From Malacoraja senta (lineage: Eukaryota), in NCBI GenBank assembly GCA_038087875.1, contig CM075990.1:2668001-2732000 (forward strand): a stretch of 64,000 nucleotides of DNA, in the 5' to 3' direction. The notes under the pieces were generated by a model. That model was not told the origin of the DNA and made no database searches. It was given only the letters and a program-made list of their open reading frames with translations. This document shows positions 3,058 through 63,470 of the stretch, piece after piece (the first letter of the stretch is position 1; each line of letters opens with the position of its first letter). The translations under genes and the position numbers were made by a program.

Positions 3058-3705
3058 TGTGGCACGGTGGCGCAGTGGTAGAGCTACTGCCTTAAGGGTC
3101 TGTCCCACTTTCCCGAGTTACTCACGAATTCTCCCAAGTTTTCCCCTTGATTCAAACTCGGAGAATGGTCGTAACGAGTCCGTAGGAGTCTGCGGATATA
3201 TCGTAGCGGCTCGTTATGCCAGTGGTAGGTACTCGGGGCATCAGGTCATTTGGGACGTTTTTTCGGCCTGATGAAAAATGTCCATGAGTAAATAAAAAGC
3301 CCCGATTACCTACGGCTGGCAGAATGAGCCGCTACGATATATCCACAGACTCCTACGGCCTCCTACAGACATTCTCCGAGTTTGAATCAAGGGGAAAACT
3401 CGGGAGAATTTGTAAGTAACTGGGGAAAGTGGGACAGGCCCTTTACAGCGCCAGAGACCCGCGTTCGATCACGACTACAGGTGCTGTCTGTACGGAGTTT
3501 GTATGTTCTCCCCGTCACCTGTGTGGGTTTTTCTCCATGGTGTACAGGTTTTGTAGGTTTATTGGTTTGGTATAAATGTAAAAATTGCCCCTGGAGTGTG
3601 TAGGATAGTGTTAGCGTGCGGGGATCGCTGGGCGGTGCGGACTCGGTGGGCCATGGAGCCTGTTTCCGCGCTGCATCTCTAAACTAAACTAAACTAAACT
3701 AAACT
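3058..3705 (+). mobile_element. tRNA-derived V-SINE (HE1-like), interrupted by a MITE
   Basis: A box tggcgcagtgg, B box gttcgatc, V-domain ggagtttgtatgttctccccgt, CR1-type tail plus (ctaaa)n. Confidence 0.85.
3095..3442. mobile_element. PIF/Harbinger-type MITE
   Basis: TIRs agggtctgtcccacttt / aaagtgggacaggccct with TTA duplicated on both sides; splits a SINE head at ctgcc-tta-cagcgcc. Confidence 0.88.
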
Positions 3706-3971: not shown

Positions 3972-4209
3972 AGGGCCTGTCCCACTTTCACGACCTAATT
4001 CACGACCTTTTTTACTCGTGGACATTTTTCATCGGGCTAGAAAAAACGCCCCGACCTACTTGATGCCACGAGTACCTACGACCAGCATCACGACCTGCTA
4101 CGACCTCCCTACGACCTCCTACGACCTCGTGACGACCATGCTGCGAGTATGAGTCAAGGGCAAACTCGTCAGAGGTCGTGAATTAGGTCGTGAAAGTGGG
4201 ACAGGCCCT
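3972..4209. mobile_element. PIF/Harbinger-type MITE
   Basis: Long TIR agggcctgtcccactttcacgacctaattcacgacct with a TAA TSD; internal acgacc repeats. Confidence 0.9.
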
Positions 4210-5915
4210 TAAGAAGGAACTGCAGATGCTGGAAAATCGAAGGTAGACAAAAATGCTGCAGAAACTCAGCAGGTGAGGCAGCATCTATGGAGCGAAGGAA
4301 ATAGGCGACCTTTCGGGTCGAAACCCTTCTCATGTTCCTTTGGCCTTCTTCAAAATGCTGAAGATGACTTTTTCCAAATTTGACATCTGGCATGGCTCTT
4401 AATTGCTTCTTTTCAGACCTTTCCTCACTCTTTCAAAAGTGTTTCTGAGCGAAGATCAACGTGCTGGAGTAACTGGGTGGGTTGGGCAGCGTCAGTGGCG
4501 CATATGGATGGACAACGTTTCATGTCAGGGCTTTTCTTCAGTCCGAAGAAGGGTTCTGACACAAACCATCATCTGTCCATTCCAATGAGTCAATAATTCA
4601 ACGATTCAATGATAATATATTGTTACCTGTACCCAGGTACAGTGAGATTCTTTGCTTTTGCGTCTAATCTGGTAAAATCATACAGCGGACCTCACCAAGA
4701 TAGTACACAAAGAGTCGCCACGTGACTATTGCCGACAAAGTTATAAACAGTTTAGTGAACAGTCTATATTTCCTTGCAGTGACGAACCTGGCATGAGATA
4801 GCAGGCCGGCCCCTCACCAGGTTCCCCTTTGATCTCGGCTTCCCCCTCGCTGGGTCCCCCTTCATTCTCGGCCATCTGTTGATCCCTCCACAGACGCTGC
4901 CTGACCGGCTGAGTTCATCCAGCAATAGGCACAAAAAGCTGGAGTAACTCAGCGGGACAGGCAGCATCTCTGGGTGGTAGGAATGGGTGACGTTTCGGGC
5001 CGAGACCCTTCTTCAGGCTGAGAGTCAGGGGAGAGGGAGATACAGAGGTAAGGAAGTGTAAGGTGTGAAAACGAGACAAAGGGGATGGAGATCAAGGAAA
5101 ATGCAGCAAACAGAGATAAAATGTAAACGAGGACGGTCAGACTAGTCGGAGAAATGGGAAGGGGGGGAGGGATGGAGAGAGAGAGGGAAGGCAAAAGTTA
5201 CATGAAGTTAGAGAAGTCAATATTCATACAGCTGAGGTGTAAGTTCCTCCGGCACTTTGTTTGATACTCACTTTCCAGCATCTATAGTTTCCTGTCTCTC
5301 CCCGCATCTAAACAGAATTGCATTTCACCTGCATTAATTTTCGCGTCGTCCCAAATTCCATTGTCCAACTCTCACACTATTTTCCGTCTTGCTCTGTTAA
5401 TTAAGATATCCATTGTGCTCCTGCCTTAGGCTTGCCCTGTTTGAAGTCTCCCACAATGTATGCTTTAAGAATAAGGGATAAGCCATTTAGAACGGAGATG
5501 AGGAAAAATCTTTTCACACAGAGGGTTGTGAATCTGTGGAATTCTCTGCCTTAGAAGGCTGTGGAGGCCAATTCTCCTGATGCTTTTAAGAGAGAGTTAG
5601 ATAGAGCTCTTAAAGATAGCGGAGTCAGGGGAGTTTCTCCAGCATTTTTTGTCTACTACTGATTGTGGATGATCAGCCATGATCACAGCGAATGGCGGTG
5701 CTGGATTGAAGGGCCGAATGGCCTACTCCTGCACCTATTCTCTATTGTCTGTTCTATGTGCATCAGAGTCTCCCTTCTGATCCTCACCAACTCTGAGAAC
5801 AGTTCCATTTCTTCTCCAGGGTCTGCCTTTTGTGATCCATCATGGTGGCGCAGCGGTAGAGTTGCTGCCTTCCACGCTGTAACACTAAACTAAACCAAAC
5901 TAAATATTGAGTCTG

Positions 5916-6130
5916 TGTAGGAAGGAACTGCAGATGCTGGTTGAAAGACACAAAATGCTGGAGTAACTCAGCAGGATTGGCAGCATCTCTGGAGAGAAGG
6001 AATGGGTGACATTTTGGATCGAGACCCTTCTCCAGTCTGAAGTACGATCTCGAATCGAAATGTCACCCATTCTTTCTCTCCAGAGATGCTGCCTGACCTG
6101 CTGAGTTACTCCAGCATTTTGTGTCTATCT
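5916..6130. repeat. Penelope-pLTR-derived palindromic cassette
   Basis: agacacaaaatgctggagtaactcagcagg...cagtctg...cctgctgagttactccagcattttgtgtct; arms about 90 bp. Confidence 0.8.
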
Positions 6131-6142
6131 GGAAATTGAGTC

Positions 6143-6652
6143 AATAGACAATAGACAATAGGTGCAGGAGTAGGCCATTTGGCCCTTCAATGTGATCATG
6201 GCTGATCATCCCCAATCAGTACCGCGTTCCTGCCTTCTCCCCATATCCCCTGACTCCGCTATTTTTAAGAGCCCTATCTAGCTCTCTCTTGAAAGCATCC
6301 AGAGAACCTGCTTCCACCGCCCTCTGAGGAAGAGAATTCCACAGACTCACCACTCTCTGTGTGAAAAAGTGTTTCCTCGTCTCTGTTCTAAATGGCTTAT
6401 TCCTTATTCTTAAACTGTGGCCCCTGGTTCTGGACTCCCCCAACATCGGGAACATGTTTCCTGCCTCTAGCGTGTCCAAGCCTTTAACAATCTTATATGG
6501 TTCAATGAGATGCCCTCTCATCCTTCTAAACTCCAGAGTGTACAAGCCCAGCTGCTCCATTCTCTCAGCATATGACAGTCCCGCCATCCCGGGAATTAAC
6601 CTTGTAAACCTACGCTGCACTCCCTCAATAGCAAGAATGTCCTTCCTGAAAT
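6143..6652 (-). mobile_element. CR1 (HER1-like) LINE 3' end
   Basis: RKDILAIEGVQRRFTRLIPGMAGLSY...LYTLEFRRMRG...SRTRGHSLRI...FFTQRVVSLWNSLP, then 3' UTR with (attgtct)n tail. Confidence 0.92.
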
Positions 6653-7029
6653 TAGATCTGATCAGTATGGTTTCACAATGTAGAAATCCTTCAAACTCAT
6701 GCGTTTTCACCAGTAGTCTCTCCACAGTACCCCTCCTCCTGCCAAAATGACCCCAGCAACAACTCATACCTAACTCCTGCTCTTCCTCAGTGATTTCATC
6801 TGTTGGATTTCCATTTATATGCTGAAAACTCCCAACTCCAGCCATCCACTCTAAGACCACAACAATGTCCGCCCAACATTACTTTGTGGATAAACCAATA
6901 TTTCCTCTGATTGACAATGGAAAGACTAACAGCAATAACAAGGAACTGCCAATGCTGGTTTATACCAAAGATAGACACAAAATACTGGAATAATTCAGCG
7001 TGACAGGCAGCATCACTGGAGAAAATGGT

Positions 7030-7847: not shown

Positions 7848-8268
7848 TTCGCCGAACACCTCCGCTCGGTCCGCATTAACCAACCTGATCTCCCGGTGGC
7901 TCAGCACTTCAACTCCCCCTCCATTCCGAATCCGACCTCTCTGTCCTGGGCCTCCTCCATGGGCAGAGTGAGCACCACCGGAAATTGGAGGAGCAGCACC
8001 TCATATTCCGCTTGGGCAGTCTGCACCCTTGCGGCATAAATATTTAATTCTCCAATTTCCGGTAGCCCTTGCTGTCTCCTCCCCTTCTCAGCTCTCCCTC
8101 AGCCCTCGAGCTCCTCCTCTTCCATTTTCCTTTCTTCTCCCCCCCCCCATCCCCCCCCCCCCACCCTGCATCAGTCTGAAGAAGGGTTTCGGCCCGAAAC
8201 GTTGCCTATTTCCTTCGCTCCATAGATGCTGCTGGACCCGCTGAGTTTCTCCAGCACTTTTGTCTACC
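7848..8268 (+). mobile_element. Penelope-like element 3' end (GIY-YIG C-terminus plus pLTR with hammerhead motif)
   Basis: FAEHLRSVRINQPDLPVAQHFNSPSHSESDLSVLGLLHGQSEHHRKLEEQHLIFRLGSLHP, followed by ctgaagaagggtttcggcccgaaacgtt at 8176-8203. Confidence 0.88.
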
Positions 8269-8669
8269 TAAAATTCTTAAGGGATTGGATAGGCTAGATG
8301 CAGGAAAAATGTTCCCGATGTTGGGGGAGTCCAGAACCAAGGGTCACAGTGTAAGAATAAAGGGTAGGCCATTTGGGACTGAGATGAGGAAAAGCTTTTT
8401 CACCCATGGAATTGTGAATTTGTTGAATTATTTGCCAGAAGGCAGTGAAGGCCAATTCACTGGATGTATTCAAGAAAGTTAGATTTAGCTCTTGGGGCTA
8501 ACGGAATCAAGGGATCTGGGGAGAAAGCAGGAACGGGGTACTGATTTTGGATGATCAGCCATGATCATATTGAATGGTGAAGCTGGCTCGAAGGGCCGAA
8601 TGTCCTACTCCTGCACCTATTTTCTATGTTTCTATGCTGCCTAACCTACCGAGTATTACCTCCGTTTTC

Positions 8670-10955: not shown

Positions 10956-12332
10956 TTCAATATCAAGATACAAGTGTCTCAGGTGCTGCTTTACAACAAA
11001 GGTGCTGGAGTAAGTTCATAAGCTCGTAAGACATAGGCCCAGAATTGGTCCATTCGGCCCATCAAATCTGCTCCGACATTCAATCATGTCTGATATACTA
11101 TGCCCTCTCAACCCCATGCTCCCCTTCCACACCCGTATTAATCAAGAACGTATCAATCTCCGCTTTAACTCAGCGGGTCAGGCAGCTTTCTTGGATACAG
11201 CCGATGTTTCAGGTCTGGACTCTTCTCCAGAACTGCAGTAACCCTGCCTTAAGGTTAAGATTATGGCGGCACGGTGGTGCAGTGACAGAGTTGCATCCTC
11301 ACAGCGCCAGAGACTCGGGTTCAATTCTGACTAGGGGTGCTGTCTGTACGGAGTTTGTACGTTCTCCCCGTGACCTGCGTGGGTTTCCTCCCTCACGCAA
11401 AGACGTCCAGATTTGAAGGCTAATTGGCTTGGTATCATTGTAAATTATCCCTAGTGTGCATAGGATGGTGTTAGTGTGCGGGGATCGCTGATCGGCGCAG
11501 ACTTGGTGGGCCGAAGGGCCTGTTTCCGCGCTGTATCTCTAAACTAAACTAAAAGTTGGTTTTCATTTTAGGTGGCAATGGCAACACTTTGAGGTGGCCG
11601 GTATGTTGCAATGAGCTGGAAAGGAGAATACAGGATGTCATCCCTGTTTAAACTAAACTAAACTAAACTAAACTAAATTAACCCCCTTGATTAACCCTGC
11701 CTAAATGTAACTGTTTCTGCCCTGTTTCACCAAGGCACACTTGGATAAGGTAACTCACATTATCACCCTGTTCCTCCTTGCACAAAAGCATGCACTACCG
11801 CCCTACTGAAATCTTTTAGACAGTCAGATAGAGAATATCGACAGCTCTTGTTATAAATTAACTTGTTACGATGCAGTTAGTTGTGTAACATTATTGAACA
11901 GTCTCGGCAATAGAACCGTCAATTGTATCACCAAATGGTGTTCTGTGCCAGCTCAGTGTGTACTTATCCATATTAGCTGGCTAATACTATTAACACATAT
12001 GTATCAGCGAAAATGAATCACATGGCTGTAACTACACTTTGGAATTACCGCATTAAACACAATATTCAATACCCCATACCCTGGGAAGGCTGCAAACTAT
12101 GTCATGGTTGGGAGCTTCCAATATTTGCAGTGAGTATTTGGAGGTAACAAATGGGTTGGTTTGTGCAGAATATTCAAGCCCTTTTAAACATAACCAAGAT
12201 TCAATTTAAATTACTGATAACTTCCAAATCCAATTTCCCTCCCTGACCCAAGTCGTTGTACCAGCGTCAAAGTGGTCTTGTTGAGTCTCATTGCCTGTAA
12301 CTCGTTTTCACCTAGTCCCTAGCTAACGATGG

Positions 12333-12532
12333 TAGACAAAAATGCTGTAGAAACTCAGCGGGTGAGGCAGCATCAATGGAGCGAAGGAAATAGGCGACGT
12401 TTCGGGTCAAGGCCCTTCTTCAGTCTGAAGAAGGGTTTCGATCCGAAATGTTGTCTATTTCCTTCGCTCCATAGATGCTGCCTCACCCGCTGAGTTTCTC
12501 CAGCATTTTTGCTACCTTTGATTTTCCAGCAT
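12333..12532. repeat. Penelope-pLTR-derived palindromic cassette (second subfamily)
   Basis: caaaaatgctgtagaaactcagcgggtgaggcagcatc...cccttcttcagtctgaagaaggg...gatgctgcctcacccgctgagtttctccagcatttttg. Confidence 0.82.
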
Positions 12533-13934
12533 CCTTCTTCAACACCCTAGCTAACAATGGCCTGTTTCCTTTATCATCGTCACTTTTTTTGCATATCTTT
12601 CATTCATTTGTTCTATATCTCTCTATATCACTGTCTATATCTCTCGTTTCACTCTCCCCTGACTCTCAGTCTTGGCCCAAAACGTCACCTGACCCTGTTG
12701 CTCCACAGATGCTGTCTGACCCGCAGAGTTACTCCAGCTTTTTGTGCCTATCGGCAATTTCCCCAAAGGTGTTTTCAATGAAATTCATTGCCACAGACGT
12801 CTATGGGGGCCGAGTCAATGGATAGTTTTAAGTTGGAGATTGACCGATTCTTGATTAGTACGGGCGTCAGAAGTTATGGGAAGAAGGCAGGAGAATGGAG
12901 TAAGGAGGGAGAGATAGATCAGCCATGATTGAATGGCGGAGTAGACTTGATGGGACGAATGGCCTAATGCTGCTCCTAGAATTTTATGAACATGAAAAAA
13001 ATCACCAAAAGTTTATTGTTTAAAAATCAAAGTGATATAAATCCAAGCACCAATAAAGTGATGAAATTCCCCAAGAACTGGTGAAATTTGCTTTCACAGG
13101 TAAACTCATGTTGAGATAGGCACAAAGTGCTGGAGTAACTCAGCGGATCAGGTAGCATATCTGGAGGAATAGGATGGGTGACGTTTTGGGTCGGGACCCT
13201 TCTTCCGAATCATTTTTCTCCAGTGATGCTGCCTGACCCACTGAGTGACTCCAGCACTTTGTGTCTATCTTTGGTATAAACCAACATCTGCAGTTATCTT
13301 TCTTCATCTCATGTTAATCTATTCTTTTTTGCTATGTAGTGGTGACACTGTGAGATGATTTACCGTCCCACCAAACGCATGGTCTCTGCAGACATGCAAT
13401 GTAAAGACACTGTCGTGTTGTCACTACATTTGATTCTGACCCCACTCCAGGGTCATTTTCCTCCCTCAACCCAAAGGCGTATGCGTTTGTAGATTAATGG
13501 ACCTCTGTAAATTGTCTCTCATGTGTTGGAATTGAATGTGAGTGTGGGATAGCATAGAACTAGTGTGAATGATGATCAATGGTCAGCATGGACTCGGTAG
13601 GTCAAATGGCCTGTTCTCAAGGTCGGTGCAGTGGTGCAGCGGGTAGAGTTGCTGCCTTACAGGACCAGAGACCCGGGTTCAATCCTGACTATGGGTGTAA
13701 GAAGAACTGCAGATGCTGGTTTAAACTGTAGATGGACACAAAAAGCTGGAGATAGACTGTCTGTATGAAGTTTTCACCTTCTCCCTGGGACCGCGTGGGT
13801 TTTCTCCGGGTGTTCCTGTTTGCTCCCACACTCCAAAGGCTTGCAGGTTTGTAAGTTAATTGGCTGCTGTAAATTGTCCTTAGTGCGTAGGATAGTGCTA
13901 GTGTGCAGGGTGATCCCTGGTCAGCACAGACTCA

Positions 13935-14507
13935 ATAGACAATAGACAATAGGTGCAGGAGTAGGCCATTCGGCCCTTCGAGCCAGCACCGCCATTCAAT
14001 GTGATCATGGCTGATCATCCCCAATCAGTACCCCGTTCCTGCCTTCTCCCCATATCCCCTGACTCTGCTATCTTTAAGAGCCCCATCTAACTCTCTCTTG
14101 AAAGTATCCATAGAACCGGCCTCCACTGCCCTCCGAGGCAGAGAATTCCACAGACTCACAACTCTCTGTGAGAAAAAAATGCTTTTCCTCGTCTCTGTTC
14201 TAAATGGCTTACTCCTTATTCTTAAACTGTGGCCCCTGGTTCTGGACTCCCCCAACATCGGGAACATGTTTCCTGCCTCTAGCGTGTCCAAACCCTTAAC
14301 AATCTTATATGTTTCAATAAGATACCCTCTCATCCTTCTAAACTCCAGAGTATACAAGCTCAGCCGCTCCATTCTCTCAGCATATGACAGTCCCGCCATC
14401 CCGGGAATTAACCTACGCTGCACTCCCTCAATAGCAAGAATGTCCTTCCTCAAATTAGGGGACCAAAACTGCACACAATACTCCAGATGTGGTCTCACTA
14501 AGGCCCG
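13935..14507 (-). mobile_element. CR1 (HER1-like) LINE 3' end
   Basis: YRALVRPHLEYCVQFWSPNLRKDILAIEGVQRR...VSLWNSLP plus tail. Confidence 0.92.
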
Positions 14508-14781
14508 ATACAACACGGTGGGCCAAAGGGCCTGTTTCCATGCTGTATCTTTAAAGTCTAGCCTAAAGTCCATGCTGTATCTTTCAATATTTCTACCCAT
14601 CAAAATACCCGAACACATTACAATTTCCCTCTTTATAATTTTTTTAGTCATCCATTGTTGTTTTCTAAAACATTTCCAATCTCTCCGGAGATGCTGCCTG
14701 TCCTGCTGAGTTACCACACCATTTTGTGTCTACCATTTCTCAGGATCTCCTGTGCTACAATCAAGTCACTCTCACTCTTTA

Positions 14782-15016
14782 AGGGCCTGTCCCACTCGGG
14801 TGTCATTTGCGCGTCACGCAGGTGGCGCGCGAAGATTTCGTGAATCCCCAAATCCTGGGGCGCCGCGCGCGACCGCACGTCACCGCCTACGCCACCACGT
14901 CTCACCACACGCCATGCGCGCGTAATGTACGCCATGCGCGCGTCACGTGCACGTCACGACGTACACGTGACACGTAAATTATGTCGCGCAAATAACTCCC
15001 AAGTGGGACAGGCCCT
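14782..15016. mobile_element. PIF/Harbinger-type MITE (CpG-rich subfamily)
   Basis: TIRs agggcctgtcccact / agtgggacaggccct with a TTA TSD; interior related to the 25197 and 29358 copies. Confidence 0.9.
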
Positions 15017-21345: not shown

Positions 21346-22024
21346 AGGGCCTGTCCCACTTACGTGTCCTTGGCATGCAAATTACGCGACCTCGTGGTCG
21401 CGTTGAGCCGAGATGGTCGAGCGAAGGTCGCGCGCGATTTCATGCGTTCGCCCAGCCGTCTGGAGCGCGTGACGTCATTTGAAGATGGACACAAAATGCT
21501 GGAGTAACTCAGCGGGACCGGCAGTATCTCTGGAGAGAAGCAATGGGTGATGTTTCGTGTCGAGACTCTTCTTCAGTCTGAAAAGAAGGGTCTTGACCCT
21601 AAACGTCACCCATTGCTTCTCTCCAGAGATGCTGCCGGTCCCGCTGAGTTACTCCAGCATTTTGTGTCCATCTTTAATTTTCTTGACCCCGCTCTGGGAG
21701 TAGAAGTGGGTGGGGATCCGGACCGCAACGGCCGTGAGCCCCAGGCCGAGCTCGGCGATCGTTCGCCTGCTTCTGCTGCTGTTGAAGGTGAGACGTTGCG
21801 TCGCGCCAGGGTCTTGGGCCTGTCCCACTTTGGCCGTCAGTTCCGCGACAGGCCGTTGGCGCGTGAAGATTTTGTTCACTACAAAAATGTCGCGCACAAC
21901 TACATACCCCTCCGCGCTTCTAAGTGGGACCGGCCCCGCGCGGCCATATGATGCCCATATGCCTCAACGCAACCACGAGGTCGCGTAATTTGCGTGCGAA
22001 GGACACGTAAGTGGGACAGGCCCT
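21346..22024. mobile_element. Composite PIF/Harbinger-type MITE carrying captured sequence
   Basis: About 60-bp TIRs (agggcctgtcccacttacgtgtcctt...gcgttgag) with a TAA TSD. Contains a Penelope-derived palindrome (21481-21674) and an inner TIR pair (21816-21936). Confidence 0.9.
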
Positions 22025-25129: not shown

Positions 25130-25990
25130 GTTTGAGTTCTGTTTATTTTTTGTCACGTGTACCTAGGTACAGTGAAAAGCTTTTGTTGCGTGCTAAAGGG
25201 CCTGTCCCACTTGGGTGTTATTTGCGCGTTTTTTACGCTACATCATTTACGCATCACGACGCACGACGCGACATCATTTAGGCATCACGCGCGCGCCGTG
25301 ATGCACATGTGATGCGCGCATGGCATGCATTAAGCGCGCATGGTGCGTGGTGAGACGTGGTGGCGTAGGCAGTGACGCACGGTCGCGCATGACGTCCCAG
25401 GATTTTGGGATTCACAAAATTTTTGCGCGCAACCTGCGTGATGCGCAAATGACGCCCAAGTGGGACAGGCCCCTTAAGCAGACAGTGGAAAGACAGTACA
25501 TTGTTATAAACAAGCCATCCACAATGTACAGTACATGATACAGGGAATAACATGAATAGCGTTTAGTGCAAGACAATGTCCACTGAAGTCTGATCAAAGG
25601 TAGTCCAATGAGGATTAGATTATCCTCATCTACAATGAGGTAGATAGTAGCTCAGGGTTGTTCTCTAGTTGTGGTAGGATGGTTCAGTTGCCTGATAACA
25701 GCTGGGATGAAACTGTCCATGAATCTGGTGGTGAGCATTTTCACACTTATGTACCTTTCGCCTGATGGGAGAGGGAAGAAGAGGGAGTGGCCGGGGTGTG
25801 ACTCGTCCTTGATTACGCTGCTGGCCTTGCCGAGGCAGCGTGAGGTATAAATGGAGTCAGTAGAAGGGAGGTTGATTTGTGTGATGATCTGGGCTGCGTC
25901 CACAATTCGCTGCAACTTCTTGCGGACTTGGATGGAGCTGTTCCCAAACCAAGTTGTGATGCATCCTGATAAAATGCTTTCTCCGGCGCA
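25130..25990 (-). mobile_element. Rex1/Babar LINE 3' fragment (hosts a MITE)
   Basis: ESILSGCITTWFGNSSIQVRKKLQRIVDAAQ...FIPAVIRQLN plus tail. Confidence 0.85.
25197..25474. mobile_element. PIF/Harbinger-type MITE (CpG-rich subfamily)
   Basis: Same TIR with a TAA TSD; inserted in a Rex1-type 3' UTR, in the opposite orientation to the 14782 copy. Confidence 0.88.
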
Positions 25991-28120: not shown

Positions 28121-28563
28121 TTAAGGCTGTGCCCTCTGGCCCTTGACTCTCCCACTGGTGGAAACATCCTAGTCTCCACGTCCACTCTGTCCGGGCCTTT
28201 CACTATTCAGTGGGTTTCAATGAGGATCCCCCTCATCCTTCTAAACTCCAGCGAGTACAGGCCCAGCGACGTCAAACGCTCATCATATGTTAACCCAATC
28301 ATCCCTGGGATCATTCTCGTAAACCTCCTCTAGACCCCGTTCAATGCCATTTGTTTCAGTTGATCTACCATACTGAAATTTATTGCTAGGTAAAACTTGA
28401 CCAGTGACGGCAAATTTATGACTTAAGAACACCAAAAAGGTGAAAGCCTTTTTCAGAAGAGACGTATTTTTACTTATAGATTTGAACATAGAGCATTATA
28501 AATCACAAAGAAAGGTTTGTTCCAGTATTGGAAGCTTAAATCACCAAGGTTTACAAATACTAT

Positions 28564-29207
28564 GGAGTGTACCTGAACAGTAAACTGGACTGGTCCAGGA
28601 ACGCTGAGGCCCTGTACAAGAATGGACAGAACCGGCTGTACTTTTTGAGAAGGCTCCGCTCCTTCAACATCTGCAGTAAGATGCTGCAGATGTTCTACCA
28701 ATTGGTGGTAGCCAGTGCCATCTTCTTCACTGCCGTGTGCTGGGGCAGCAGGGCGAAGGCCACGGACGCCAATAGGATCAACAAGCTCATCAGGAAGGCT
28801 GGCTCCGTCCTGGGGGCGGAGTTGGATTCACGGGAGGTTGGTCTTGGAGGGGAGGATGCTCCTCAAACTGCGGAGCATCCTGGACAATACAGCTCACCCC
28901 CTCCATGACACACTGGTCAACCTGAGGAGCACCTTCAGCAACAGACTGGTTCCACCAAGATGCAGGACAGAACGCCACAGGAGATCCTTCTATCAAAATG
29001 TACAACTCCTCCCCCTTCTGTTGTGGGGTAGACTGAGACTGACTCCCCCTCCCCACCTCCTCCTCCCTTCCCAATGTTTTCACATCCCCAATCCTTTCCA
29101 CTCATCACTTTAATTTCATGTTTCATGTATTTTGCATTTCATTACTGTTGGCAGATGAATTTCATCTCATGGGATAAATAACGTTCTATCGTATCGTATT
29201 GTATCGT
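28564..29207 (+). mobile_element. Rex1/Babar LINE 3' fragment
   Basis: GVYLNSKLDWSRNAEALYKNGQNRLYFLRRLRSFNICSKMLQMFYQ...HPLH.., followed by a 3' UTR and (tcgta)n tail. Confidence 0.85.
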
Positions 29208-29357: not shown

Positions 29358-29978
29358 AGGGCCTGTCACACTTGGGCGTCATTTGCGCGTCATTTACGCG
29401 ACAGGCCGTGACTGTCGCGTGAAAATCGTCTAGCATTACGACAGTCGCGCGCCAAGTGCTCTTGAGGGCCCTGCTTCTTTTGGGAGCCGTTTGCGATGTC
29501 GTTCGTACTTAGTCCGATCTCAGTGGCAAGGATTTTCCCAGTGAAAATCGTTCAAAACCACATGCGCTTTATACCTGGGTGGTCACGTGGTGCGGTGCTC
29601 AAATGATGCGCAACTGCCGCGCCGACGGCATACGGGCGGCGTATGGTTACGGACGTTAACGCACGGTGACGCATAATAAATTAGCATAGGCAATGTTCGT
29701 GCGTCACCGTGCGGAACCATGCGTCACCACGCGGCTACACGTACGGCGTCAGCATGTCAGCGTACACCATCAGTACGTCAGCGTGCGCAAGGGATTCGTC
29801 ATGCAGGTGGCGCACGAGGATTTTGAGCATTACAAAATCCTGGGGCGCTGCGCGTTACAGCGTCACTGCATACGCCACCACGCCGCACCACGCGCCATGC
29901 ACGCGTCACGATGCGCCAACCAATTTTTAGGTTGTCGCGTAAATGACGCGCAAATGACGCCCAAGTGGGACAGGCCCT
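29358..29978. mobile_element. PIF/Harbinger-type MITE, long form (621 bp)
   Basis: About 45-bp TIR agggcctgtcacacttgggcgtcatttgcgcgtcatttacgcgaca with a TTA TSD. Confidence 0.9.
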
Positions 29979-34030: not shown

Positions 34031-35087
34031 TTACTTTCTACCTGTCTTTGCATTCTGGGTTCCTCTAAAGGAGTAAAAAATACATGTGAGATTATTTGAT
34101 AATCTGAAAAGTATTCTGCTGACTGAATGGTTAGTCCAGATAGGCGGTAGACACTGAGGAGATCAACAGAGACAGTTTGTGTAGGAAGGAACTGCAGATG
34201 CAGGTTTAAACTGAAGATAGACACAAAATGCTGGAGTAACTCAGCAGGACAGACAGCATCTCTGGAGAGAAGGAATGGGTGACGTTTCGGGTTGAGACCC
34301 TTCTTCAGACTGTAAGCCTAACCATAATACACCTTGGTCTCTCTGACAAAAGGTTATTGTGGCTCAGCATAGGGATCAGTGCTGGCACCTTTAACTCATG
34401 CACAATGACTTGGATGAAGGCACTAAAAGCATGCAGGCTAAAGAAACAGAGAGGTGGTGCTGCGGTAGAGTTGCTGCCTTACAGCGCCAGAGACCCGGGT
34501 TCGATCCTGACTACAGGTGTTGTCTGTGCGGAGTTTGTACGTTCTCACCGTGACCGCGTGAGTTTTCTCCGGGTGCTCCGGTTTCCTCCCACACTCCAAA
34601 AGACCTACAGGTTTGTAGGCAAATTGGCTTTAGTAAAAATTGTAAATTGTCCCAAGTGTGTAGGATAGTGTTAGTGTGTGGGGATCACTGTTCAGCGTCG
34701 GCTCATTGGGCCGCAGGGCCTGTTTCCGTGCTGTATGTCCAAAACTGAAAGTAAAACTGATCGTATAGGAGCGGATGGAAATATAAGCTGTGTGGGAGGT
34801 TATAAATGCACATAGAAGGGTTAAGTGAATAGTGTTAAGCTCTGCAAAATGGAATATAATGTGGGAAAATGAGAAATAATTTATTTGGTTAGAAAAGCAT
34901 GGAGTCTAAATGGTGAGAGATTACAGAGCTCAAAGATACAAAGGGCCTTGGGTATTCTAGTAACCGGCCAATCTAAAGGTACAACAAGCAGTTAGGAAAG
35001 CCCGTCAGTGATATTGCTAGTTTCCAAAAGAAATGAATGTAAAAGTACAAACACTTTTTAAGGCCATTGGTGAGACCCCATCTCATG

Positions 35088-35292
35088 CCTTAACGATTAT
35101 CGTCCAATGGCATTGACATCCACCATCAAGAAGTGCTTTGAGAAGCTAATTATGGAATGCATTAAATCCAGTCTACCCAGCAACCTTGATCCATTGCAGT
35201 TCACCTACCGCCACAACAGGTCCATGGATGATGCCATCTCCCTGGCCCTACACTCATCCCTGGAACACCTGGATAAGAGAGACACCTACGTC
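35088..35292 (+). mobile_element. Rex1/Babar LINE reverse-transcriptase fragment
   Basis: [21 protein letters not shown]...[30 protein letters not shown]. Confidence 0.88.
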
Positions 35293-35403
35293 TTTGTAAT
35301 TGCTCAGGTGTGTTTAATTGCCTCCTTAATGCAGGTAGAAGAGACCTCTCAGCACCTAGTCTTTCCTCCAGTCTTTCCATCACCTTTATTGCTGTTTATC
35401 AAC

Positions 35404-35811
35404 ATGAGGACCAAAGTTGTGCCAATGAAAGTCAAAGAAGCCATTATAAGACTGAGAAACAAGAAAAAAAACTGTTAGAGACATCAGCCAAACCGTAGGC
35501 TTACCAAAATCAACTGTTTGGATATTATTAAGAAGAAAGAGAGTTTACTAATCGCAAAGGGACTGGCAGGCCAAGGAAGACCTCCACAGCTGATAACAGA
35601 AGAATTCTCTCTGTAATAAAGAAAAATCCCCAAACACCTGTCCGACAGATCAGAAACACTGTTCATGAGTCAGGTGTGGATTTGTCAATGACCACTGTCC
35701 ACAGAAGACTTCATGAACAGAAATACAGAGGCTACACTGCAAGATGCAAACCACTGGTTAGCCGCAAAAATAGGATGGCCAGGTTACAGTTTGCCAAGAT
35801 GTACTTAAAAG
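35404..35811 (+). pseudogene. Tc1-family transposase N-terminal fragment (paired-like/HTH DNA-binding domain), frameshifted
   Basis: Across frameshifts reads [48 protein letters not shown]...TTVHRRLHEQKYRGYTARCKPLVSRKNRMARLQFAK. Has the GRPR AT-hook and the KPL..RLxFA motif; the DDE domain is absent. Confidence 0.88.
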
Positions 35812-36246
35812 ATTCGATTCATAGACTACAGCTTTACTTTTCATCGATTCGTAGACTACAGCTTTACATTTAACACCATTATCCCATCAAAACTTATCAC
35901 CAAAATTACCGAATAGTGAAAGGCCTGGATAGAGTGGATGTGGAGAGGAGTCGAAGACCAGAGGGCACAGCCTCAGAACAAAAGGACGTACAGTACCTTT
36001 AGAATGGAGATGAAGGGGAATTTCTTTAGTCAGAGGGTGGTGAATCTGTGGAATTCATTGCCACAGAAGGCTGTGGAGGCCAAGTCAATGGATATTTCTG
36101 GTGGAGATTGATAGATTCTCGATGTTTACAGGTGTCAGTGGTCTTGGGGAGATGGCAGGAGAATGGGGTTGAGAGGGAGATATAGATTAGCCATGATTGA
36201 ATGGCGGAGTGGATACGATGGGCCGAATGGCCTAATGCTGCTCCTA

Positions 36247-36446
36247 NNNNNNNNNNNNNNNNNNNNNNNNNNNNNNNNNNNNNNNNNNNNNNNNNNNNNN
36301 NNNNNNNNNNNNNNNNNNNNNNNNNNNNNNNNNNNNNNNNNNNNNNNNNNNNNNNNNNNNNNNNNNNNNNNNNNNNNNNNNNNNNNNNNNNNNNNNNNNN
36401 NNNNNNNNNNNNNNNNNNNNNNNNNNNNNNNNNNNNNNNNNNNNNN
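36247..36446. other. Assembly/scaffold gap (200 N)
   Basis: Run of exactly 200 N; true gap size unknown. Confidence 1.
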
Positions 36447-38697: not shown

Positions 38698-39116
38698 ATA
38701 TACCTGGTAGTTTGTAAGTTGATAGACACAAAATGCTGGAGTAACTCACCGGGACAGGCAGCATCTATGGATGGAAGAAATGGGTGACATTCCGGCTCAT
38801 GGCCCTTCTTCAGACCTAATCCTTTCATATCTCTATGTCTTCCCTGAAGAAGGGTCCCGACCCGAAACGTCACCCATTCCTTCTCTCCAGAGACGCTGCC
38901 TGTCCTGCTGAGTTGCTCCGACATTTTGGTCTATCTTAAGTGAAATTCAAATACAATTCCACGCAGGAATTCAAAGAGACCTTCAATTCTACAATGTGCC
39001 TGTACAAAGGTGAATCACACCTTAGTGCAAAATACTACCTATTAATAATAAAATTAATTACTAACAGTTGTATACAGTAAAATATTACTTAATGCCACTA
39101 GGAAAACTCATTATGT

Positions 39117-39320
39117 CTAGGAAGGAACTGCAGATGCCAGGTTTAAACTGAAGATAGACACAGAAAGCTGGAGTAACTCAGTGTATCAGGCAGCATCTCT
39201 GGGGATAAGGAATGGGTGACGTTTCGGGTCTGAAGAAGGGTCTCGACCTGAAATGTCACCTATTCCTTTTCTCCGGAGAAGCTGTCTGAACTGCTGAGTT
39301 ACTCCTGTTTTTGTGTCTCT
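39117..39320. repeat. Penelope-pLTR-derived palindromic cassette beginning about 50 bp past the Pax exon donor
   Basis: gctggagtaactcag...gggtgacgtttcgggtctgaagaagggtctcgacc...ctgagttactcc. Confidence 0.75.
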
Positions 39321-39370
39321 CTTAGGAAAACTCATTAAGCAAGTAGCTATAAAGACACAGGAATACTCAC

Positions 39371-39457: not shown

Positions 39458-40392
39458 CTGAGGAAGGAAATACAGAAGACAATGTTTAATACAATGGTAA
39501 GTCGAGAACAAGCTGATGCGTAGTGAATATTGACTTCTCTAACTTCCAGTAACCCTTGCTTTCCCTCTCTTCATAGAAGGCTGTGGAGGCCAAGTCAGTC
39601 GATACTTTTAAGGCAGAGATAGATAGATTTTTGTGTAGGAAGGAACACATTTGAGAGTTTAGGTTAAAGATACATGGAAAAAGACCCTTCGGCTCACCAA
39701 GTCCAGGCCGGCCATCGATCACCCATTCACACTAGTTCTATGTTATCCCGCTTTCGCATCTGCTCCTTACACGTTGTGCAGGAAGGAACTGCAGATGCTG
39801 GTTTACACCGAAGGTAGACACAAAACGCTGGAGTAAATCAGCAGGTCAGGCAGCATCTCTGGTGAGAAGGAATGGGTGACGGTTCGGGTTGTGACCCTTG
39901 ATTAGTACGGGTATCAGGGGTTATGGGGAGAAGGCAGGGGAATGGGGTTAGGAGAGAGAGATAGATCAGCCATGATTGAATGGTGGAGTAGACTTGATGG
40001 GCCAAATGGCCTAATTCAGCTCCTATCACTTATGACCTTATGAACTTATGACCTCTCCATCCCTCCCCCATCCTAGTCCTCTGACTAGTTTGACTGTCCT
40101 CCTGATCAAATTTTACTTTATATTGCCTCGTTATCAACTTCCCCTCAGCTAACGCTGATCTATGTGTAGAAACCAACCGCAGATGCTAGTTTAAATCAAA
40201 GTTGGACACAAAATGCTAGAGTAACAGCAGGGCAGGCAGCATCTCTGGAGAGAAGGAATGGGTGACATTTCAGATCGAGACCCTCTTCACACTAACAATG
40301 ATCTATTCTGCATTTTCCTTAAACTTCTTCCACTTTGATCTCCCATTTTCACACCTCTTCCATATGTCTCCTTTCCCTTTCTCCTGACTCTC

Positions 40393-45039: not shown

Positions 45040-45347
45040 TTAGTTTAGTTTGGAGAAACAGTGCCGAAACAAGCCCTTCAGCCCACTGAGTCCACACTGA
45101 CCAGCGATCACCGGACACTAACACTATCCTACACACACAAGGGACAATTTACATTTACACCAAGCCAATTAACCTACAAACCTGCACGTCTTTAGAGTGT
45201 GGGAGGAAAATGAAGATCTCGGAGAATACCCACGCAGGTCACGGGGAGAACGTACAAACTCCGTACAGACAGCACCTGTAGTCAGGATCGAACCTGGGTG
45301 TCTGGTGCTGTGAGGTAGCAACTCTACCGATGCACCACTTTGCCGCC
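45040..45347 (-). mobile_element. tRNA-derived V-SINE (HE1-like)
   Basis: Head-to-head with a plus-strand copy at about 45440-45735. Confidence 0.85.
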
Positions 45348-45754
45348 CTTTTTAGTTATAAGTTTATTAAATTAGAAGCTGAATATTAAGCAATAATAAA
45401 CTAAACTGAACTAAAATCAAAGAGGCTACACAATAGGCTATAGAGTTGCTGCCTTACAGCGCCAGAGACCCGGGTTCGATCCTGACTATGGGCGCTGTCT
45501 GTATAGAGTTTGTACGCTCTCCCCGTGACCTGCGTGGGTTTTCTCCGAGATCTTCGGTTTCCTCCCACACTCCAAAGACGTACAGGTTTTATAGGCTATT
45601 TGGCTTGGTATGAATGTAAAATTGTCCCCAGAGTGTATAGGGTTCTGTATAGGGTTTGTGCGGGGATCGCTGGTTGGTGCGGACACGGTGGGCTGAAGGG
45701 CCTGTTTCCGTGCTGTATCTCAAATCTAAAATCTACTACTGGTCAAATACGTCC

Positions 45755-46125: not shown

Positions 46126-48185
46126 GGCCTGAGGTGAATAGATCGGGTGAACGCACAGAGTCTCTTTTATCCTCCCATGGACGAATCAAGAACTGCGGTC
46201 ACGGTGCCTTACAGCGAATGCAGCGCCGGAGACCCGGGTTCGATCCCGACTACCGGTGCTGTCTGTACGGAGTTTGTACGTTCTTCCCGTGACCTGCGTG
46301 GGTTTTCTCCAAGATCTTTGGTTTCCGCCCACATTCCAAAGATGTACAGGTTTGTAGGTTAATTGGCTTGGTAAATGTAAAAATTGTCCCTAGTGGGTGT
46401 AGGATAGTGTTAATGTGCGGTGATCGCTGGTCGCTGGTTGGCGCGGACCAGTTGGGCTGAAGGACCTGTTTCTGCGCTGGATCTCTAACTAGAGGGCCTA
46501 GGTTTAAGAGGAGAAGACATAGATTTAATAAGAACCTGAGGGGGCATTGTATTTTCACACAGACGGTAGACACAAAAAGCTGGAGTAACTCAGCGGGACA
46601 GGCAGCATCTCTGGAGAGAAGGAATGGGTGACGTTTCGGGTTTGAGACCCTGGCTGAGGACAACATCACAGTACATGGGGGGATTGTAGACATGCCAGCT
46701 GCTGTGATGTTTGTTTAGTCTGAAGAAGACAGCACAGTGCTGCAGCTGGTAGAGCCGTCACCGCACAACGCCAGAGACCCGGGTTCAATCCAGATCTCGG
46801 GTGCTGTCTGCGTGGAGTCTGCACATGTGGAGGAATTTCTTTAGTTAGAGGGTGGTGAACCTGTGGAATTCTTTGCCACAGTCGGCTGTGGAGGCCAAGT
46901 CAATGGATATTTTTAAGGCAGTGATAGATAGATCCTTGATTAGTACAGGTGTCAGGAATTATGGGGAGAAGGCAGGAGAATGGGGTTAGGAGGGAGAGAT
47001 AGTTCAGCCATGATTGAATGGCGGAGTAGACTTGATGGGCCAAATGGCCTTATTCTGCTTCTATCACTTATGAACTTATTCTGAAGGACAATAAAAACAT
47101 TGGGCCTTCTCAGCTATGGCCAAATCACAAAATGACTAAAAGACAATAAATAATCCAGTATTTACAAAAGGATCGTTAAACCATTTTTGGCGGTTAATAA
47201 CAAAAGGTGCCTGTGATTAATGGGTTTTGAAACAATAAATGAATAAATGGTTATCCCATTCTGAGTTTTCTGCGCCTCCTGTCCTCAGCCAAGCGCAATT
47301 GCTATCATGGGGCGGCGGGTGGAGCTGCTGCCTCACAGCGCCAGAGATCCGGGTTCAATCCTGACCAGGTGCTGTCTGTGTGGAGTTTGCACGTTCTCCC
47401 TGTGACCGAGTGGCTTTCCTCCAGGCGCTCTGGTTTCCTCCCACATCCCAAAGACGTGTGGGTTTGCAGATTAATTGGCTTCTGTAAATTGCCCCTAGTG
47501 TGTAGGTAGTGGATGGGAAAGTGGGATAACTTAGAACTAGTGTGAACGGCTGTCGATGGTTGGCGTGGACTCAATAGGCCATAGGGCCTGTTTCCATTCT
47601 GTATCTCTAAACTAAACTAAACTAAACTACATATCGATACAAGAAACTGCAGATACTATTTACCAAAAAAGATACAAAGTGCTCAGGCATTATCTCCGGG
47701 GAACATAGATAGGTGACATTTCGGGTCGGGGGTCTCCTTCACTCTACTGTGTTTCAAGGCAGGACACTTATCTACAACAGGAAAACCAGCCCTTCGGCCC
47801 ATCGAGTCCATTCCGACCTTCAATCACCCATCCACGCTAGTTCTATGTTATCCCGACTTTCACATCGTCTCACACTAGGGGCAATATACTGAGGCCAATT
47901 AACCTGCAAACCCACACGCCTTTGGCTTGTGGGAAGAAACTGGAGCACCTGGAGGAAACCCATGCGGTCACAGGGAGAACGTGCAGACTCCACGCAGACA
48001 GCATCCAATATTAGGATTGAACCTGGGTCTCTGGCGCTGTTAGGCAGTGGCTCTACCGCCACTGCCTAACAGCGCCACTGTACCACCTTCTTCACACTAA
48101 ATCAACATAGCACCAGCTGGCAAGTCTACAATCCGCCATGTACTCCGATGTTGTCTTCTACTACCAGCCCCAGATACCACAACAG

Positions 48186-48505
48186 GGCGGCACGTTGGCG
48201 CAGCGGTAGAGTTGCTGCCTTACAGCCCCAGAGACCCAGGTTCGATCCTGACCACGAGTGCTGTCTGTACAGAGTTGGTACGTTCGCCTTGTGACCACAT
48301 GGGTTTTCTCCGGGTGCTCCGGTTCACTCCCACTCTCCAAAGACTTACAGGTTTGAAGTATAATTGGGTTCGGCAAAAATAGTAAGTTGTCCCTAGTATG
48401 TGTTGGATAACGTTAGTGTGCGGGGTAGTCGCTGGTCGGCGCGGACTCGGTGGGTCGAGGGGACTGTTTCCATTTTGTATCTCTAAACTAAGCTAAACAA
48501 AGCTA
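48186..48505 (+). mobile_element. tRNA-derived V-SINE (HE1-like), full length
   Basis: A/B boxes, V-domain and tail. Confidence 0.88.
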
Positions 48506-49145: not shown

Positions 49146-49469
49146 GGTGGTCACGGTGGCACAGCAGTAGAGTTGCAGCCTTACAGCAAATTCACCGCCG
49201 GAGATCCGGGTTTGATCCCGACTACGGGTGCTGTCTGTACGGAGTTTGTACATTCTCCCCGTGACCTGCGTGAATTTTCTCCGAGATCTTCGGTTTCCTC
49301 CCACATTCCAAAGACTTACAGGTTATAGGTTAATTGGCTTGGTAAATGTGTAAATTGTCCCTAGTGGATGTAGGATTGTGTTAATGTGCGGGGATCGCTG
49401 GTCGGCGCGGACCCGGTGGGCTGAAGGGCCTGTTTCCGCGCTGTATCTCTAAACTAAACTAAACTAAAC
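49146..49469 (+). mobile_element. tRNA-derived V-SINE inserted in the expanded tail of an opposite-strand SINE (about 49500-49814)
   Basis: Full consensus; tagact-type repeats on both sides. Confidence 0.85.
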
Positions 49470-58648: not shown

Positions 58649-58752
58649 AAGATTGACAGATTCTTGATTCGTACGGGTGTCAGGGATTATGGGAAGAAGG
58701 CATGAGATTGGGATTAGGAGGGAGAGATAGATCAGCCAGTATTGAATTGCGG

Positions 58753-59058
58753 TTATCAACACCGTAAATTGGAGGAAATGCACCTCATATTCCGCTTGGG
58801 CAGTCTACATCCTGGGGGCTTGAACATTGAATTCTCCCAATTCTGCTAGCCCTTGCTGTCCCCTCCCCTTCATCAGCCATCTGGTTGTCTCCTCCCCTCC
58901 CCCAGCCCTCGGGCTCCTCCTCCGCCTTTTTCCTTTTTTCCTTTCTTCTCACCACCCTCTATCAGTCTGAAGAAGGGTTTCGGCCCGAAACGTTACCTAT
59001 TTCCTTCGCTCCATAGATGCTGCTGCACCCGCTGAGTTTCTCCAGCATTTTTGTGTAC
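58753..59058 (+). mobile_element. Penelope-like element 3' end with apparent TSD
   Basis: RKLEEMHLIFRLGSLHPGGLNIEFSQF* plus hammerhead motif; flanked by cagccaKtattgaat at 58733 and 59059. Confidence 0.82.
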
Positions 59059-59791
59059 CAGCCATTATTGAATGGTGGAGCAGACTTGATGGGCCGAATG
59101 GTCAAATTCTGCTCCTATCACATAAGCTTATTAACATGATATTTTTAAAGCAGGGATTGACAGATTCTTAATTTTTAAGGGAGTCAGGGGTTATGGGGAG
59201 AAGGCAGGAGAATGGGGTTGAGAGGGAAAGATAGATCAGCCTAGATTGAAAGGCAGAGTAAACTCGATGGGCCGAATGGCCTAATTCTGCTCCTAGAACA
59301 TATAAACTTATGAACCTCCTGTGCTGTATTTTTCCATGTTCTATGTTCTATGAACAATTAAATCATCTGAACTGTAACTGAACATCCATACACTGCATCC
59401 TGGCCCCCTCAATACAAATCTAAAATTCGCCCTCCTTACGATTTAATATTGTATTAACATATTATTTTCTCCCGTGTATGCTTGCTTAGCAACGGCGAGA
59501 GTTCCCGCTGTCGAACATTTAGACAGCCTAATTGTTTCAGCCCAGCCGTGTTGTCAGAAAACAAAACCTAGGCTCCCCTGCTGAACATATATTGAAAATT
59601 GTTTCTCCGTTTTATACACGCTGTATTGAGCTCATGTGGTGCGAAACAAAATGTCAATTATGCTGCAAATTCTAGAGTTCTGGGCCTTCGTAGCAACAAT
59701 AACAAACAGTTCATGAGTCATTCATTTTCAATAGATCGTGCAAAGAAAAATCTACCCACGCAAAGAAAAATCTACAAAATCAATAACTTTA

Positions 59792-62919: not shown

Positions 62920-63470
62920 GGACCCATATCTGAGGAAGGATGTGCTGGCTCTGGAGAGGGTCCAGAGGGAGTTTACAAGAATGATCCCAGGAATGAGTGG
63001 GTTAGTGTACGACGAGTGTTTGACGGCACTGGGCCTGTACTCGCTGGAGTTTAGAAGGTTGAGGGGGGACATCATTGAAACTTACAGAATAATGAAAGGC
63101 ATAGATAGAGTGGATGTGGAAAGGATGTTTCCACTGGTGGGAGAGTCTAGGACTAGAGGTCACAGCCTCAGAATTAAAGAGCGTTCTTTTAGAAAGGAGG
63201 TGAGGAGGAACTTCTTTAGTCAGAGGGTAGTTAATCTGTGGAACTCATTGCCACAGAGGGCTGTGGAGGCCAAGACAGTGGATATTTTTAAGGCAGAGAT
63301 AGACAAATTCTTGGTTAGAACGGGGGTCTCAAGGGTTATGGGGAGAAGGCAGGAAAATGGGATTAGGAGGCAGAGATCAGCCATGATTGAATGGCGAAGT
63401 GGACTAGATGGACCGAATGGTCTAATTCTGCTCCTATAACATATTCTGCTCCTATAACATTGTGAACTTG
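62920..63470 (+). mobile_element. CR1 LINE 3' end
   Basis: LALERVQREFTRMIPGMSGL...FFSQRVVNLWNSLPQRAVEA. Further CR1 pieces at about 5466-5757, 8270-8635, 15577-15880, 26500-26890, 27710-28345, 35905-36246, 50300-50605, 55330-55567, 60870-61228 and 63570-63920. Confidence 0.9.

What the first reader, a model, noticed from the sequence alone, without database searches (positions are those of the whole stretch)
12333..12532. Recurrent ~200-bp palindromes centred between two back-to-back hammerhead ribozyme motifs
Seen: many cassettes are two inverted copies of the Penelope pLTR end (5916, 12333, 21481, 39117, 61445; remnants at 980, 13117, 36912, 38722, 51703, 54506, 60655). In the best-preserved ones the axis is at the same place, cccttcttcag-t-ctgaagaaggg, the 5' edge of the CUGAAGA box. 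This holds in two sequence subfamilies. Known: Penelope-like elements carry minimal hammerheads in their pLTRs and often insert with an inverted pLTR. Inference: a fixed inversion point suggests either a self-propagating non-autonomous palindromic element or a ribozyme-defined template switch. A transcript from either strand would contain a ribozyme paired with its own antisense arm, forming a self-inhibited hairpin and potential dsRNA source.
Basis: partly seen in the sequence, partly recalled or inferred. Interest (0 to 1): 0.7.

Follow-up and report, generated by a model that had tools for sequence, protein, structure and literature searches.

The report
Mirror-image Penelope run-off insertion, skate-like genome
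This 212-base mirror-image insert is a decayed scrap of a known kind of jumping gene (Penelope-like) in a cartilaginous fish, likely made when the element copied only the first 95-130 letters of its RNA onto both cut ends of the target DNA, so it is probably not a new ribozyme element but a footprint that could help explain how these elements build their inverted ends.

Summary
The palindrome is real: 12333-12544, two head-to-head copies of a Penelope-like pLTR end, a tail on one arm only, and a 16-bp target-site duplication whose empty site survives in a paralogue. The window holds 59 arm matches and 15 head-to-head pairs. The exact symmetric axis occurs in only 4 of 15 pairs (three subfamilies), but 11 of 15 have at least one arm starting there. 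Single arms start at the same edge too, in the window and in thousands of reads from other runs. So the fixed point belongs to the template, not to palindromes. It lies 28 nt upstream of the predicted hammerhead cut, where no step in coverage is seen. Best reading (inferred): both DNA nicks prime short cDNAs from two internal start sites, these run off the RNA's 5' end (an initiator-like TCAGTCT), and they join through a self-complementary 5-mer. A self-propagating palindrome or a cleavage-defined switch is not supported. The layout is published; the fixed edge was not found in seven literature searches. The scan already reported this in eight other shark or skate windows, with the same idea.

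The parts
12317..12332 (+). left copy of 16-bp target-site duplication
   Evidence: p=0.004 against random flank pairs; single copy in the paralogue upstream of 60191
12333..12423 (-). left arm: pLTR end, arm positions 1-91, subfamily B, no tail
12396..12423 (-). minimal hammerhead core, left arm (helix II 3 bp, helix I 0 bp, GUC triplet)
12420..12428 (.). axis TCAG-T-CTGA, centre 12424; also the native pLTR sequence (initiator-like, and acceptor-like CAG)
12425..12517 (+). right arm: pLTR end, subfamily B
12425..12452 (+). minimal hammerhead core, right arm (helix I 2 bp, palindromic CG decayed to TG, GUU triplet)
12518..12544 (+). tail on the right arm only, with an internal deletion of about 8 nt
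12545..12560 (+). right copy of target-site duplication
12230..12760 (+). older Penelope-like 3' UTR and degenerate arm (12669-12760) into which the palindrome inserted
5914..6130 (.). symmetric palindrome, subfamily A, tail on left arm, 8-bp duplication
21483..21673 (.). symmetric palindrome, subfamily A, no tail, arms share 3 rare variants
39114..39322 (.). asymmetric pair, one arm starts at the fixed edge, tail on one arm, 15-bp duplication
40163..40293 (-). single arm from -3 to tail end with 15-bp duplication (2 mismatches), inserted antisense in a Penelope 3' UTR; shows one arm is a unit of insertion
7855..8269 (+). 5'-truncated parent-type copy: broken GIY-YIG C-terminus, pyrimidine-rich 3' UTR, arm
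58733..59060 (+). 5'-truncated parent-type copy with ORF end and 15-bp duplication

Best explanation
The palindrome is one old insertion of two head-to-head ends of a Penelope-like retroelement between duplicated target DNA, likely built at insertion when both cut strands primed short cDNAs that ran off the 5' end of the element's RNA and were joined through a self-complementary 5-mer. Steps: (1) shown: arms derive from the pLTR that follows a GIY-YIG ORF. (2) shown: arms end at two fixed 3' points (about 94 and 131), and most begin at -2 to -4 before CUGA. (3) inferred from PMC11167929: the two 3' points are internal reverse-transcription start sites, and both strands are nicked and extended. 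(4) inferred: the fixed 5' point is the RNA start, at the A of an initiator-like TCAGTCT. (5) inferred: two cDNAs ending in AGACT pair with each other across a central A-A mismatch, which gives exactly the observed axis. Asymmetric pairs arise when one cDNA stops early, or by later central deletion. The ribozyme is a passenger and the insert is predicted to be a dead end.
For: ORF end upstream of arms matches RT+GIY-YIG proteins. 16-bp duplication with empty paralogous site; 6 of 16 pairs tested have an abutting duplication of 8-16 bp, each p<=0.022. 35 of 59 arms start at -4..+1; 27 of those 35 lack the native pyrimidine-rich upstream. A single arm from -3 to 131 sits directly between 15-bp duplications. 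Reads: loose ends pile up at -2, -3, -4 (RNA run X23: 935, 972, 2280 reads; X1: 1687, 1583, 2930 contigs) with consensus agreement only 0.31-0.42, and at 3' positions about 90-95 and 131; tandem joints link the same 5' edge to the same 3' points. With native upstream as reference, depth falls from about 5850 to 840 across the edge. Tail on one arm in 10 of 15 pairs, on both in 0. The axis 9-mer is native, self-complementary sequence. Both-strand extension, two start sites and a predicted dimer are published for an anole element (PMC11167929).
Against: No direct evidence that -3 is a transcription start: no CAGE or 5' RACE, and a cap-derived G at -4 is seen in 0 of 7 window arms starting AG (read by eye). 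The same bases are an equally good splice acceptor and the 5' strand of helix I. Tail asymmetry is not significant (p=0.10; 9 of 14 after removing 40163, about 0.15 by hand). Arms share rare variants slightly more than shuffled partners (9 against 4.6, p=0.046), which also fits fold-back. No symmetric-axis joint appears among the 15 of 675 joints displayed. 9 of 11 single arms tested had no detectable duplication. At 38720 one arm carries about 25 nt of native upstream, so not every cDNA came from an RNA starting at -3. The read runs are not known to be this species.
Confidence: 0.58

Rival explanations
1. Self-priming fold-back (proposed in PMC3846280): one cDNA or antisense template folds back at the TCAG-T-CTGA palindrome and copies itself.
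For: Published for palindromes at head-to-head junctions. Arms are always of one subfamily and share rare variants at p=0.046; in 2 of 14 pairs the partner is the nearest arm.
Against: A fold-back copy has no reason to stop at position 94 or 131, yet outer ends of both arms mostly fall there. A 1-nt loop is sterically poor (own knowledge). It does not explain single arms with the same edge.
Confidence: 0.15
2. Two-sided priming as above, but the fixed edge is set by something other than the transcription start: the splice acceptor (pyrimidine tract + CAG), a stall at the ribozyme's helix I, or an endonuclease cut.
For: 8 of 35 arms keep an upstream tract of 70-90% pyrimidine, mostly ending in CAG. 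In D. virilis the intron ends at the 5' end of helix I (PMC4209133), and its transcription start lies 46 bp before a 75-bp intron (PMC2377424). The edge coincides with the G-U of helix I.
Against: No common exon 1 upstream in thousands of loose ends (agreement 0.31-0.36 at -2 and -3). Ends at -1 are not among the top loose ends. RNA and DNA runs show similar proportions.
Confidence: 0.17
3. A self-propagating non-autonomous palindromic element (MITE-like or retro-mobilised).
For: 4 of 15 pairs share the exact axis; duplications flank whole cassettes.
Against: Those four belong to three subfamilies; the termini are unequal; duplications vary from 8 to 16 bp; the centre base faces opposite ways relative to the tail at 5916 and 12333; arms mostly decay independently.
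Confidence: 0.05
4. Hammerhead cleavage defines the inversion point.
For: Core motif present on both arms; 14 intact cores in the window.
Against: The axis is 28 nt from the cut. Depth falls only about 5% across the cut (12,365 to 11,794 in X23) with no loose-end peak shown. In the anole element ribozyme mutants still insert and no reads end at the cut.
Confidence: 0.03

Closest known systems
EN+ Penelope-like insertions with inverted pLTR, one-sided tail and TSD (Pen2a_Av and relatives, PMC3846280; general scheme in PMC8557442 Fig. 2 legend)
   Same: Head-to-head inverted pLTR, 30-40 bp tail at one end only, short duplication, palindrome at the inverted junction.
   Different: No ORF between the arms; about 200 bp in all; the junction recurs at one base, the hammerhead's 5' edge; duplications up to 16 bp (8-10 bp reported there).
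Anole Poseidon element PAc in vitro (PMC11167929)
   Same: Two 3' ends about 37 nt apart some 90-130 nt downstream of the hammerhead; ribozyme cut not seen in ends.
   Different: The relatives here carry the CX4CxxC linker of Neptune type; the parts read do not address inverted products or a fixed 5' end.
Minimal type I hammerheads of PLE pLTRs (PMC4209133)
   Same: CUGAAGA + extra A + 4-bp helix II + GAAA-C-G-U-H; 2-bp helix I as in D. virilis, Culex, Oikopleura; dual motifs on opposite strands 100-700 bp apart were noted in Schistosoma.
   Different: No cartilaginous fish found in the one supplementary file that could be searched; here the two motifs touch at the axis.
Non-LTR retrozymes (bioRxiv 10.64898/2026.07.22.740005)
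   Same: ORF-less, hammerhead-bearing derivatives of PLE pLTRs, reported in one chondrichthyan.
   Different: Retrozymes are head-to-tail tandems; this is head-to-head. 'Palindrom' occurs 0 times in that text.
LINE-1 twin priming and retroviral strong-stop DNA (recalled, no call)
   Same: Two primers from one staggered cut; a short run-off cDNA from an internal start to the RNA 5' end.
   Different: L1 twin priming inverts non-overlapping segments; here the same segment is copied twice.

Membership tests
EN+ Penelope-like element | pLTR follows an ORF ending in a GIY-YIG endonuclease | tested here: met
   ORF end at 7916-8044 hits P0001 (81%); P0001's C-terminus hits RT+GIY-YIG proteins; direct match to P0006 E 7e-7. 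The 43-aa piece alone has no Pfam hit.
EN+ Penelope-like element | Inverted 5'-truncated pLTR and tail at one end | tested here: met
EN+ Penelope-like element | Short variable target-site duplication | tested here: met
   16 bp at the finding; 6 of 16 pairs
EN+ Penelope-like element | Full RT-EN ORF of the parent, telomerase-like RT | not testable with these tools
   No genome held; only C-terminal remnants in the window
Neptune clade | CX2-5CxxC linker before the endonuclease | tested here: inconclusive
   Present in shark relatives P0002, P0003 and in P0006; the window's fragments do not reach it; no tree built
Minimal PLE hammerhead | CUGANGA, extra base, G10.1-C11.1 helix II, GAAA, palindromic 15.2-16.2, NUH | tested here: met
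   Both arms fit the core pattern (right arm lost the palindromic CG); helix II 90.6% paired in 24 copies. No Rfam hit at gathering score.
Minimal PLE hammerhead | Helix I | tested here: inconclusive
   2 bp in native context, 0 bp in the left arm; 2 bp is within the published range
Minimal PLE hammerhead | Compensatory changes in helices | tested here: not met
   Covariation score 0.125 against shuffled 0.131, 345 of 500 shuffles as high; decayed copies of close subfamilies give little power
Minimal PLE hammerhead | Self-cleavage | not testable with these tools
   needs an assay
Non-LTR retrozyme | Two or more head-to-tail units each with a hammerhead | tested here: not met
   1 tandem adjacency against 15 head-to-head in 59 hits; tandem joints do exist in other runs
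MITE | Terminal inverted repeats with fixed termini and fixed-length duplication | tested here: not met
   Tail on one end; duplications 8-16 bp

The most novel reading that the evidence does not exclude
Penelope-like elements make an obligatory run-off cDNA from their RNA's 5' end, like retroviral strong-stop DNA but primed on the second nick. It captures the other cDNA through a self-complementary RNA start (AGUCU), and this is the general way inverted pLTRs arise. Shark and skate genomes would then hold a base-precise record of the intermediate in very many copies, including self-targeting to one spot in the element's own 3' UTR.
Probability: 0.3. Interest if true: 0.65.

Novelty: new variant of a known kind. 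Interest (0 to 1): 0.36.

Why it matters
How Penelope-like elements form inverted pLTRs and tails is still open (PMC8557442 calls for mechanistic work; PMC3846280 proposes self-priming). These minimal palindromes fix all four ends of the two cDNAs to within a few bases, so they give predictions that the existing anole in vitro system can test. As objects they are decayed fossils. The arm is abundant in one polyA run of another cartilaginous fish (21,560 of 7,335,232 reads, both strands about equally), so a passive double-stranded RNA load is plausible but unshown.

Tried and rejected
No genome is held, so no genome-wide breakpoint plot or tree. Pattern scans found 0 matches in viral, metagenome and prokaryote contigs. 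Rfam: 0 hits. Runs X21 and X22 gave no test (39 low-complexity reads and 0 reads). The first lay used a reference with a private variant at 4974-4978 that broke alignments. Neither lay showed the symmetric joint; only 15 joints are displayed, and perfect hairpins assemble and amplify poorly (own knowledge), so I draw nothing from that about frequency. Editing: strand differences also affect changes that editing cannot make, and no matched DNA exists, so inconclusive. The 51703 and 61445 'duplications' were rejected because they do not abut the ends; the 23894 one is a microsatellite. The pair at 40205 was dropped from the pair count after searches showed a nested single-arm insertion; 41095 may be nested too but was kept. 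'TAGGT' before two arms (23894, 38813), which would lengthen helix I as a spliced form might, shares no further sequence and is left unexplained. A TATA box or correctly spaced downstream promoter element was looked for by eye and not found. Literature: seven searches gave no paper on ORF-less hammerhead-edge palindromes or on twin priming in Penelope elements. Repbase, Dfam and most subscription journals were not searchable, so the family may be catalogued there.

Full report
Numbering. Arm position 1 is the C of CUGAAGA; -1 to -5 are the bases before it (native T, G, A, C, T).

Observation. The arms at 12337-12423 and 12425-12511 are 90% complementary with one base between them. They differ at 8 substitutions and 1 gap in 91 positions. 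The transcript folds as one hairpin at -152.5 kcal/mol, with 0 of 200 shuffles as good. The insert runs from 12333 to 12544: the right arm continues into a tail with a small deletion. It is flanked by a 16-bp duplication with one mismatch, p=0.004 against random flank pairs. The flanks join into the 3' UTR of an older copy of the same element class, and the paralogous UTR upstream of 60191 carries the target once.

Family in the window. A profile built from window copies finds 59 arms. Fifteen adjacent pairs are head-to-head, one tail-to-tail and one tandem; random placement gives 2.6 head-to-head on average and at most 8 in 5000 trials. With one more pair from BLAST (9430) I examined 16 pairs. 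One (40205) proved to be a nested single-arm insertion, leaving 15. Four of the 15 have the exact symmetric axis (4448, 5916, 12333, 21481), in three subfamilies. Eleven of the 15 have at least one arm starting between -4 and +1; four have neither (980, 9430, 36912, 51703). Several asymmetric junctions, such as 39117, could be later deletions from a symmetric palindrome; those with spacers (38722, 41095, 61445) cannot. Six of the 16 pairs have an abutting duplication of 8, 8, 10, 14, 15 or 16 bp. The tail is on one arm in 10 of the 15 profile-detected pairs, on neither in 5 and on both in none; this is not significant (p=0.10).

Identity. Upstream of the arms at 8176 and 58967 lies an ORF end. 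The 43-residue piece matches a skate protein at 81%. That protein's C-terminal 102 residues match shark and ray proteins at 59-67% and a 902-residue protein at 49%, which carry RT and GIY-YIG domains and a CX4CxxC linker. PMC8557442 (passages) assigns that linker to Neptune-type elements. So the arms are pLTR ends of an endonuclease-bearing Penelope-like element, probably Neptune-type, in a cartilaginous fish. The clade rests on relatives, not on the window.

The fixed edge is not special to palindromes. Thirty-five of 59 arms begin at -4 to +1. The profile starts at -4, so arms with native upstream fall in this class by construction, but only 8 of the 35 have the native pyrimidine-rich upstream. 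The single arm at 40163-40293 spans -3 to 131 directly between 15-bp duplications. In reads and contigs from runs not known to be this species, loose ends pile up at -2, -3 and -4 (X23: 935, 972, 2280; X1: 1687, 1583, 2930) with consensus agreement of 0.31-0.42. The -4 class includes native upstream. 3' loose ends pile up at about 90-95 and at 131, and tandem joints connect the same 5' edge to the same 3' points. Against a reference with native upstream, depth in X23 falls from about 5850 to 840 across the edge; 1693 reads leave there with unrelated sequence and 722 leave five bases on with another subfamily's tract. Against this: 9 of 11 single arms tested had no detectable duplication, and neither lay displayed the symmetric joint (15 of 675 joints shown).

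The ribozyme. Fourteen cores pass a minimal pattern, including both arms of the finding. They fit the published minimal type: extra base after CUGAAGA, G-C first pair, palindromic C-G, NUH (PMC4209133, text parts 1-3 of 4; supplement file 2 searched and part 2 of 3 read, file 1 unavailable). Helix II is 90.6% paired in 24 copies, but covariation does not exceed shuffles. Helix I is 2 bp natively, as in D. virilis, and 0 bp in the left arm. In the palindrome all ribozyme pairs have probability 0.0; helix II is also below 0.005 in five of six single-arm sequences. The predicted cut is after position 28, and depth falls only about 5% there. In the anole element, core mutants still insert and no RNA reads end at the cut (PMC11167929, parts 1-2 of 4; its supplements gave no text hits, and may hold figures that bear on 5' ends).

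Mechanism. Published in vitro: a Penelope-like protein nicks and extends both strands, starts internally at two sites that bound the tail, and is predicted to be a dimer. Inferred here: positions about 94 and 131 are those two sites. A cDNA started in the first pLTR of the RNA runs off after 95-135 nt, which explains the excess of short arms with one 5' edge. The native TCAGTCT fits the initiator consensus YYANWYY (recalled) with its A at -3. Two such cDNAs both end in AGACT, which pairs with itself around a central mismatch and yields exactly the observed axis. The 9-mer is native and self-complementary. I give this 0.58. The edge could instead come from the acceptor-like CAG, a stall or a cut (0.17): in D. 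virilis the intron ends at helix I and transcription starts about 120 nt earlier (PMC2377424, passages). Fold-back self-priming (PMC3846280, passages) gets 0.15: partners share 9 rare variants against 4.6 shuffled (p=0.046), mostly from two pairs, but fold-back does not explain fixed outer ends. Self-propagation (0.05) and cleavage-defined switching (0.03) fail on the evidence above.

What is known. Inverted pLTR, one-sided tail, duplication and junction palindromes are described (PMC8969392 passages). Retrozymes are tandem derivatives (bioRxiv 10.64898/2026.07.22.740005, part 1 of 5 and passages; supplements closed). Seven searches found no description of ORF-less palindromes joined at the hammerhead edge; repeat databases were not searchable. 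Eight earlier scan notes on other shark or skate genomes report the same objects and mostly the same model. I had stated the run-off and microhomology reading before seeing them. They are not independent evidence; they pointed me to PMC3846280 and to long duplications. Look-ups for this genome and for relatives of the locus returned nothing.

Verdict. Real and abundant, a miniature variant of a known insertion layout, and not shown to be a new ribozyme system. Its value is as a precise footprint of an unresolved mechanism. Interest 0.36.

Noticed in passing
window 12317-12560 and 40149-40306: Two independent insertions (the finding and the single arm at 40163) hit overlapping positions of the homologous Penelope 3' UTR (shared CTAAC core). 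Possible self-targeting hot spot; n=2.
   Followed up: partly
window 23894(-) and 38813(-): Both arms are preceded by TAGGT instead of native TCAGT, which lengthens helix I as a spliced form might; no further shared upstream sequence.
   Followed up: partly
runs X1, X4, X15 laid on 34175-34330: The best-supported joints are opposite-strand joins of a tail end (131) to a short end (about 91-96), and 98- or 135-nt tandems joining the 5' edge to the 3' ends. Retrozyme-like units may exist in these genomes.
   Followed up: no
run X23 laid on 4926-5260: The arm is read about 1:1 on both strands, but the native upstream tract about 1.4-2.8 times more on one mate direction, suggesting depletion of sense RNA there.
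   Followed up: no
window 3096-3441, 3973-4208, 14783-15015, 21347-22023, 25198-25472, 29359-29977: A separate family with inverted termini GGGCCTGTCCCACTT, 14 matches against 0 expected; looks like a Harbinger-type MITE (label recalled).
   Followed up: partly
window 35532-35873 (+): Tc1-type transposase fragment (PF01498, E 4e-20).
   Followed up: partly
window 35074-35478 (+), 28540-28908 (+), 14025-14729 (-), 6216-6878 (-), 62918-63439 (+): LINE remnants: RVT_1 E 1.6e-4 at 35074; ALKBH8_N E 5.8e-10 at 28540; the others resemble CR1-like 3' ends by eye, and 14025 had no Pfam hit.
   Followed up: partly
window 36247-36446: Assembly gap of 200 N.
   Followed up: no
window 45178-45589, 47895-48367, 49323-49648: Longer inverted repeats not belonging to the Penelope arm family; probably inverted pairs of other repeats.
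   Followed up: no
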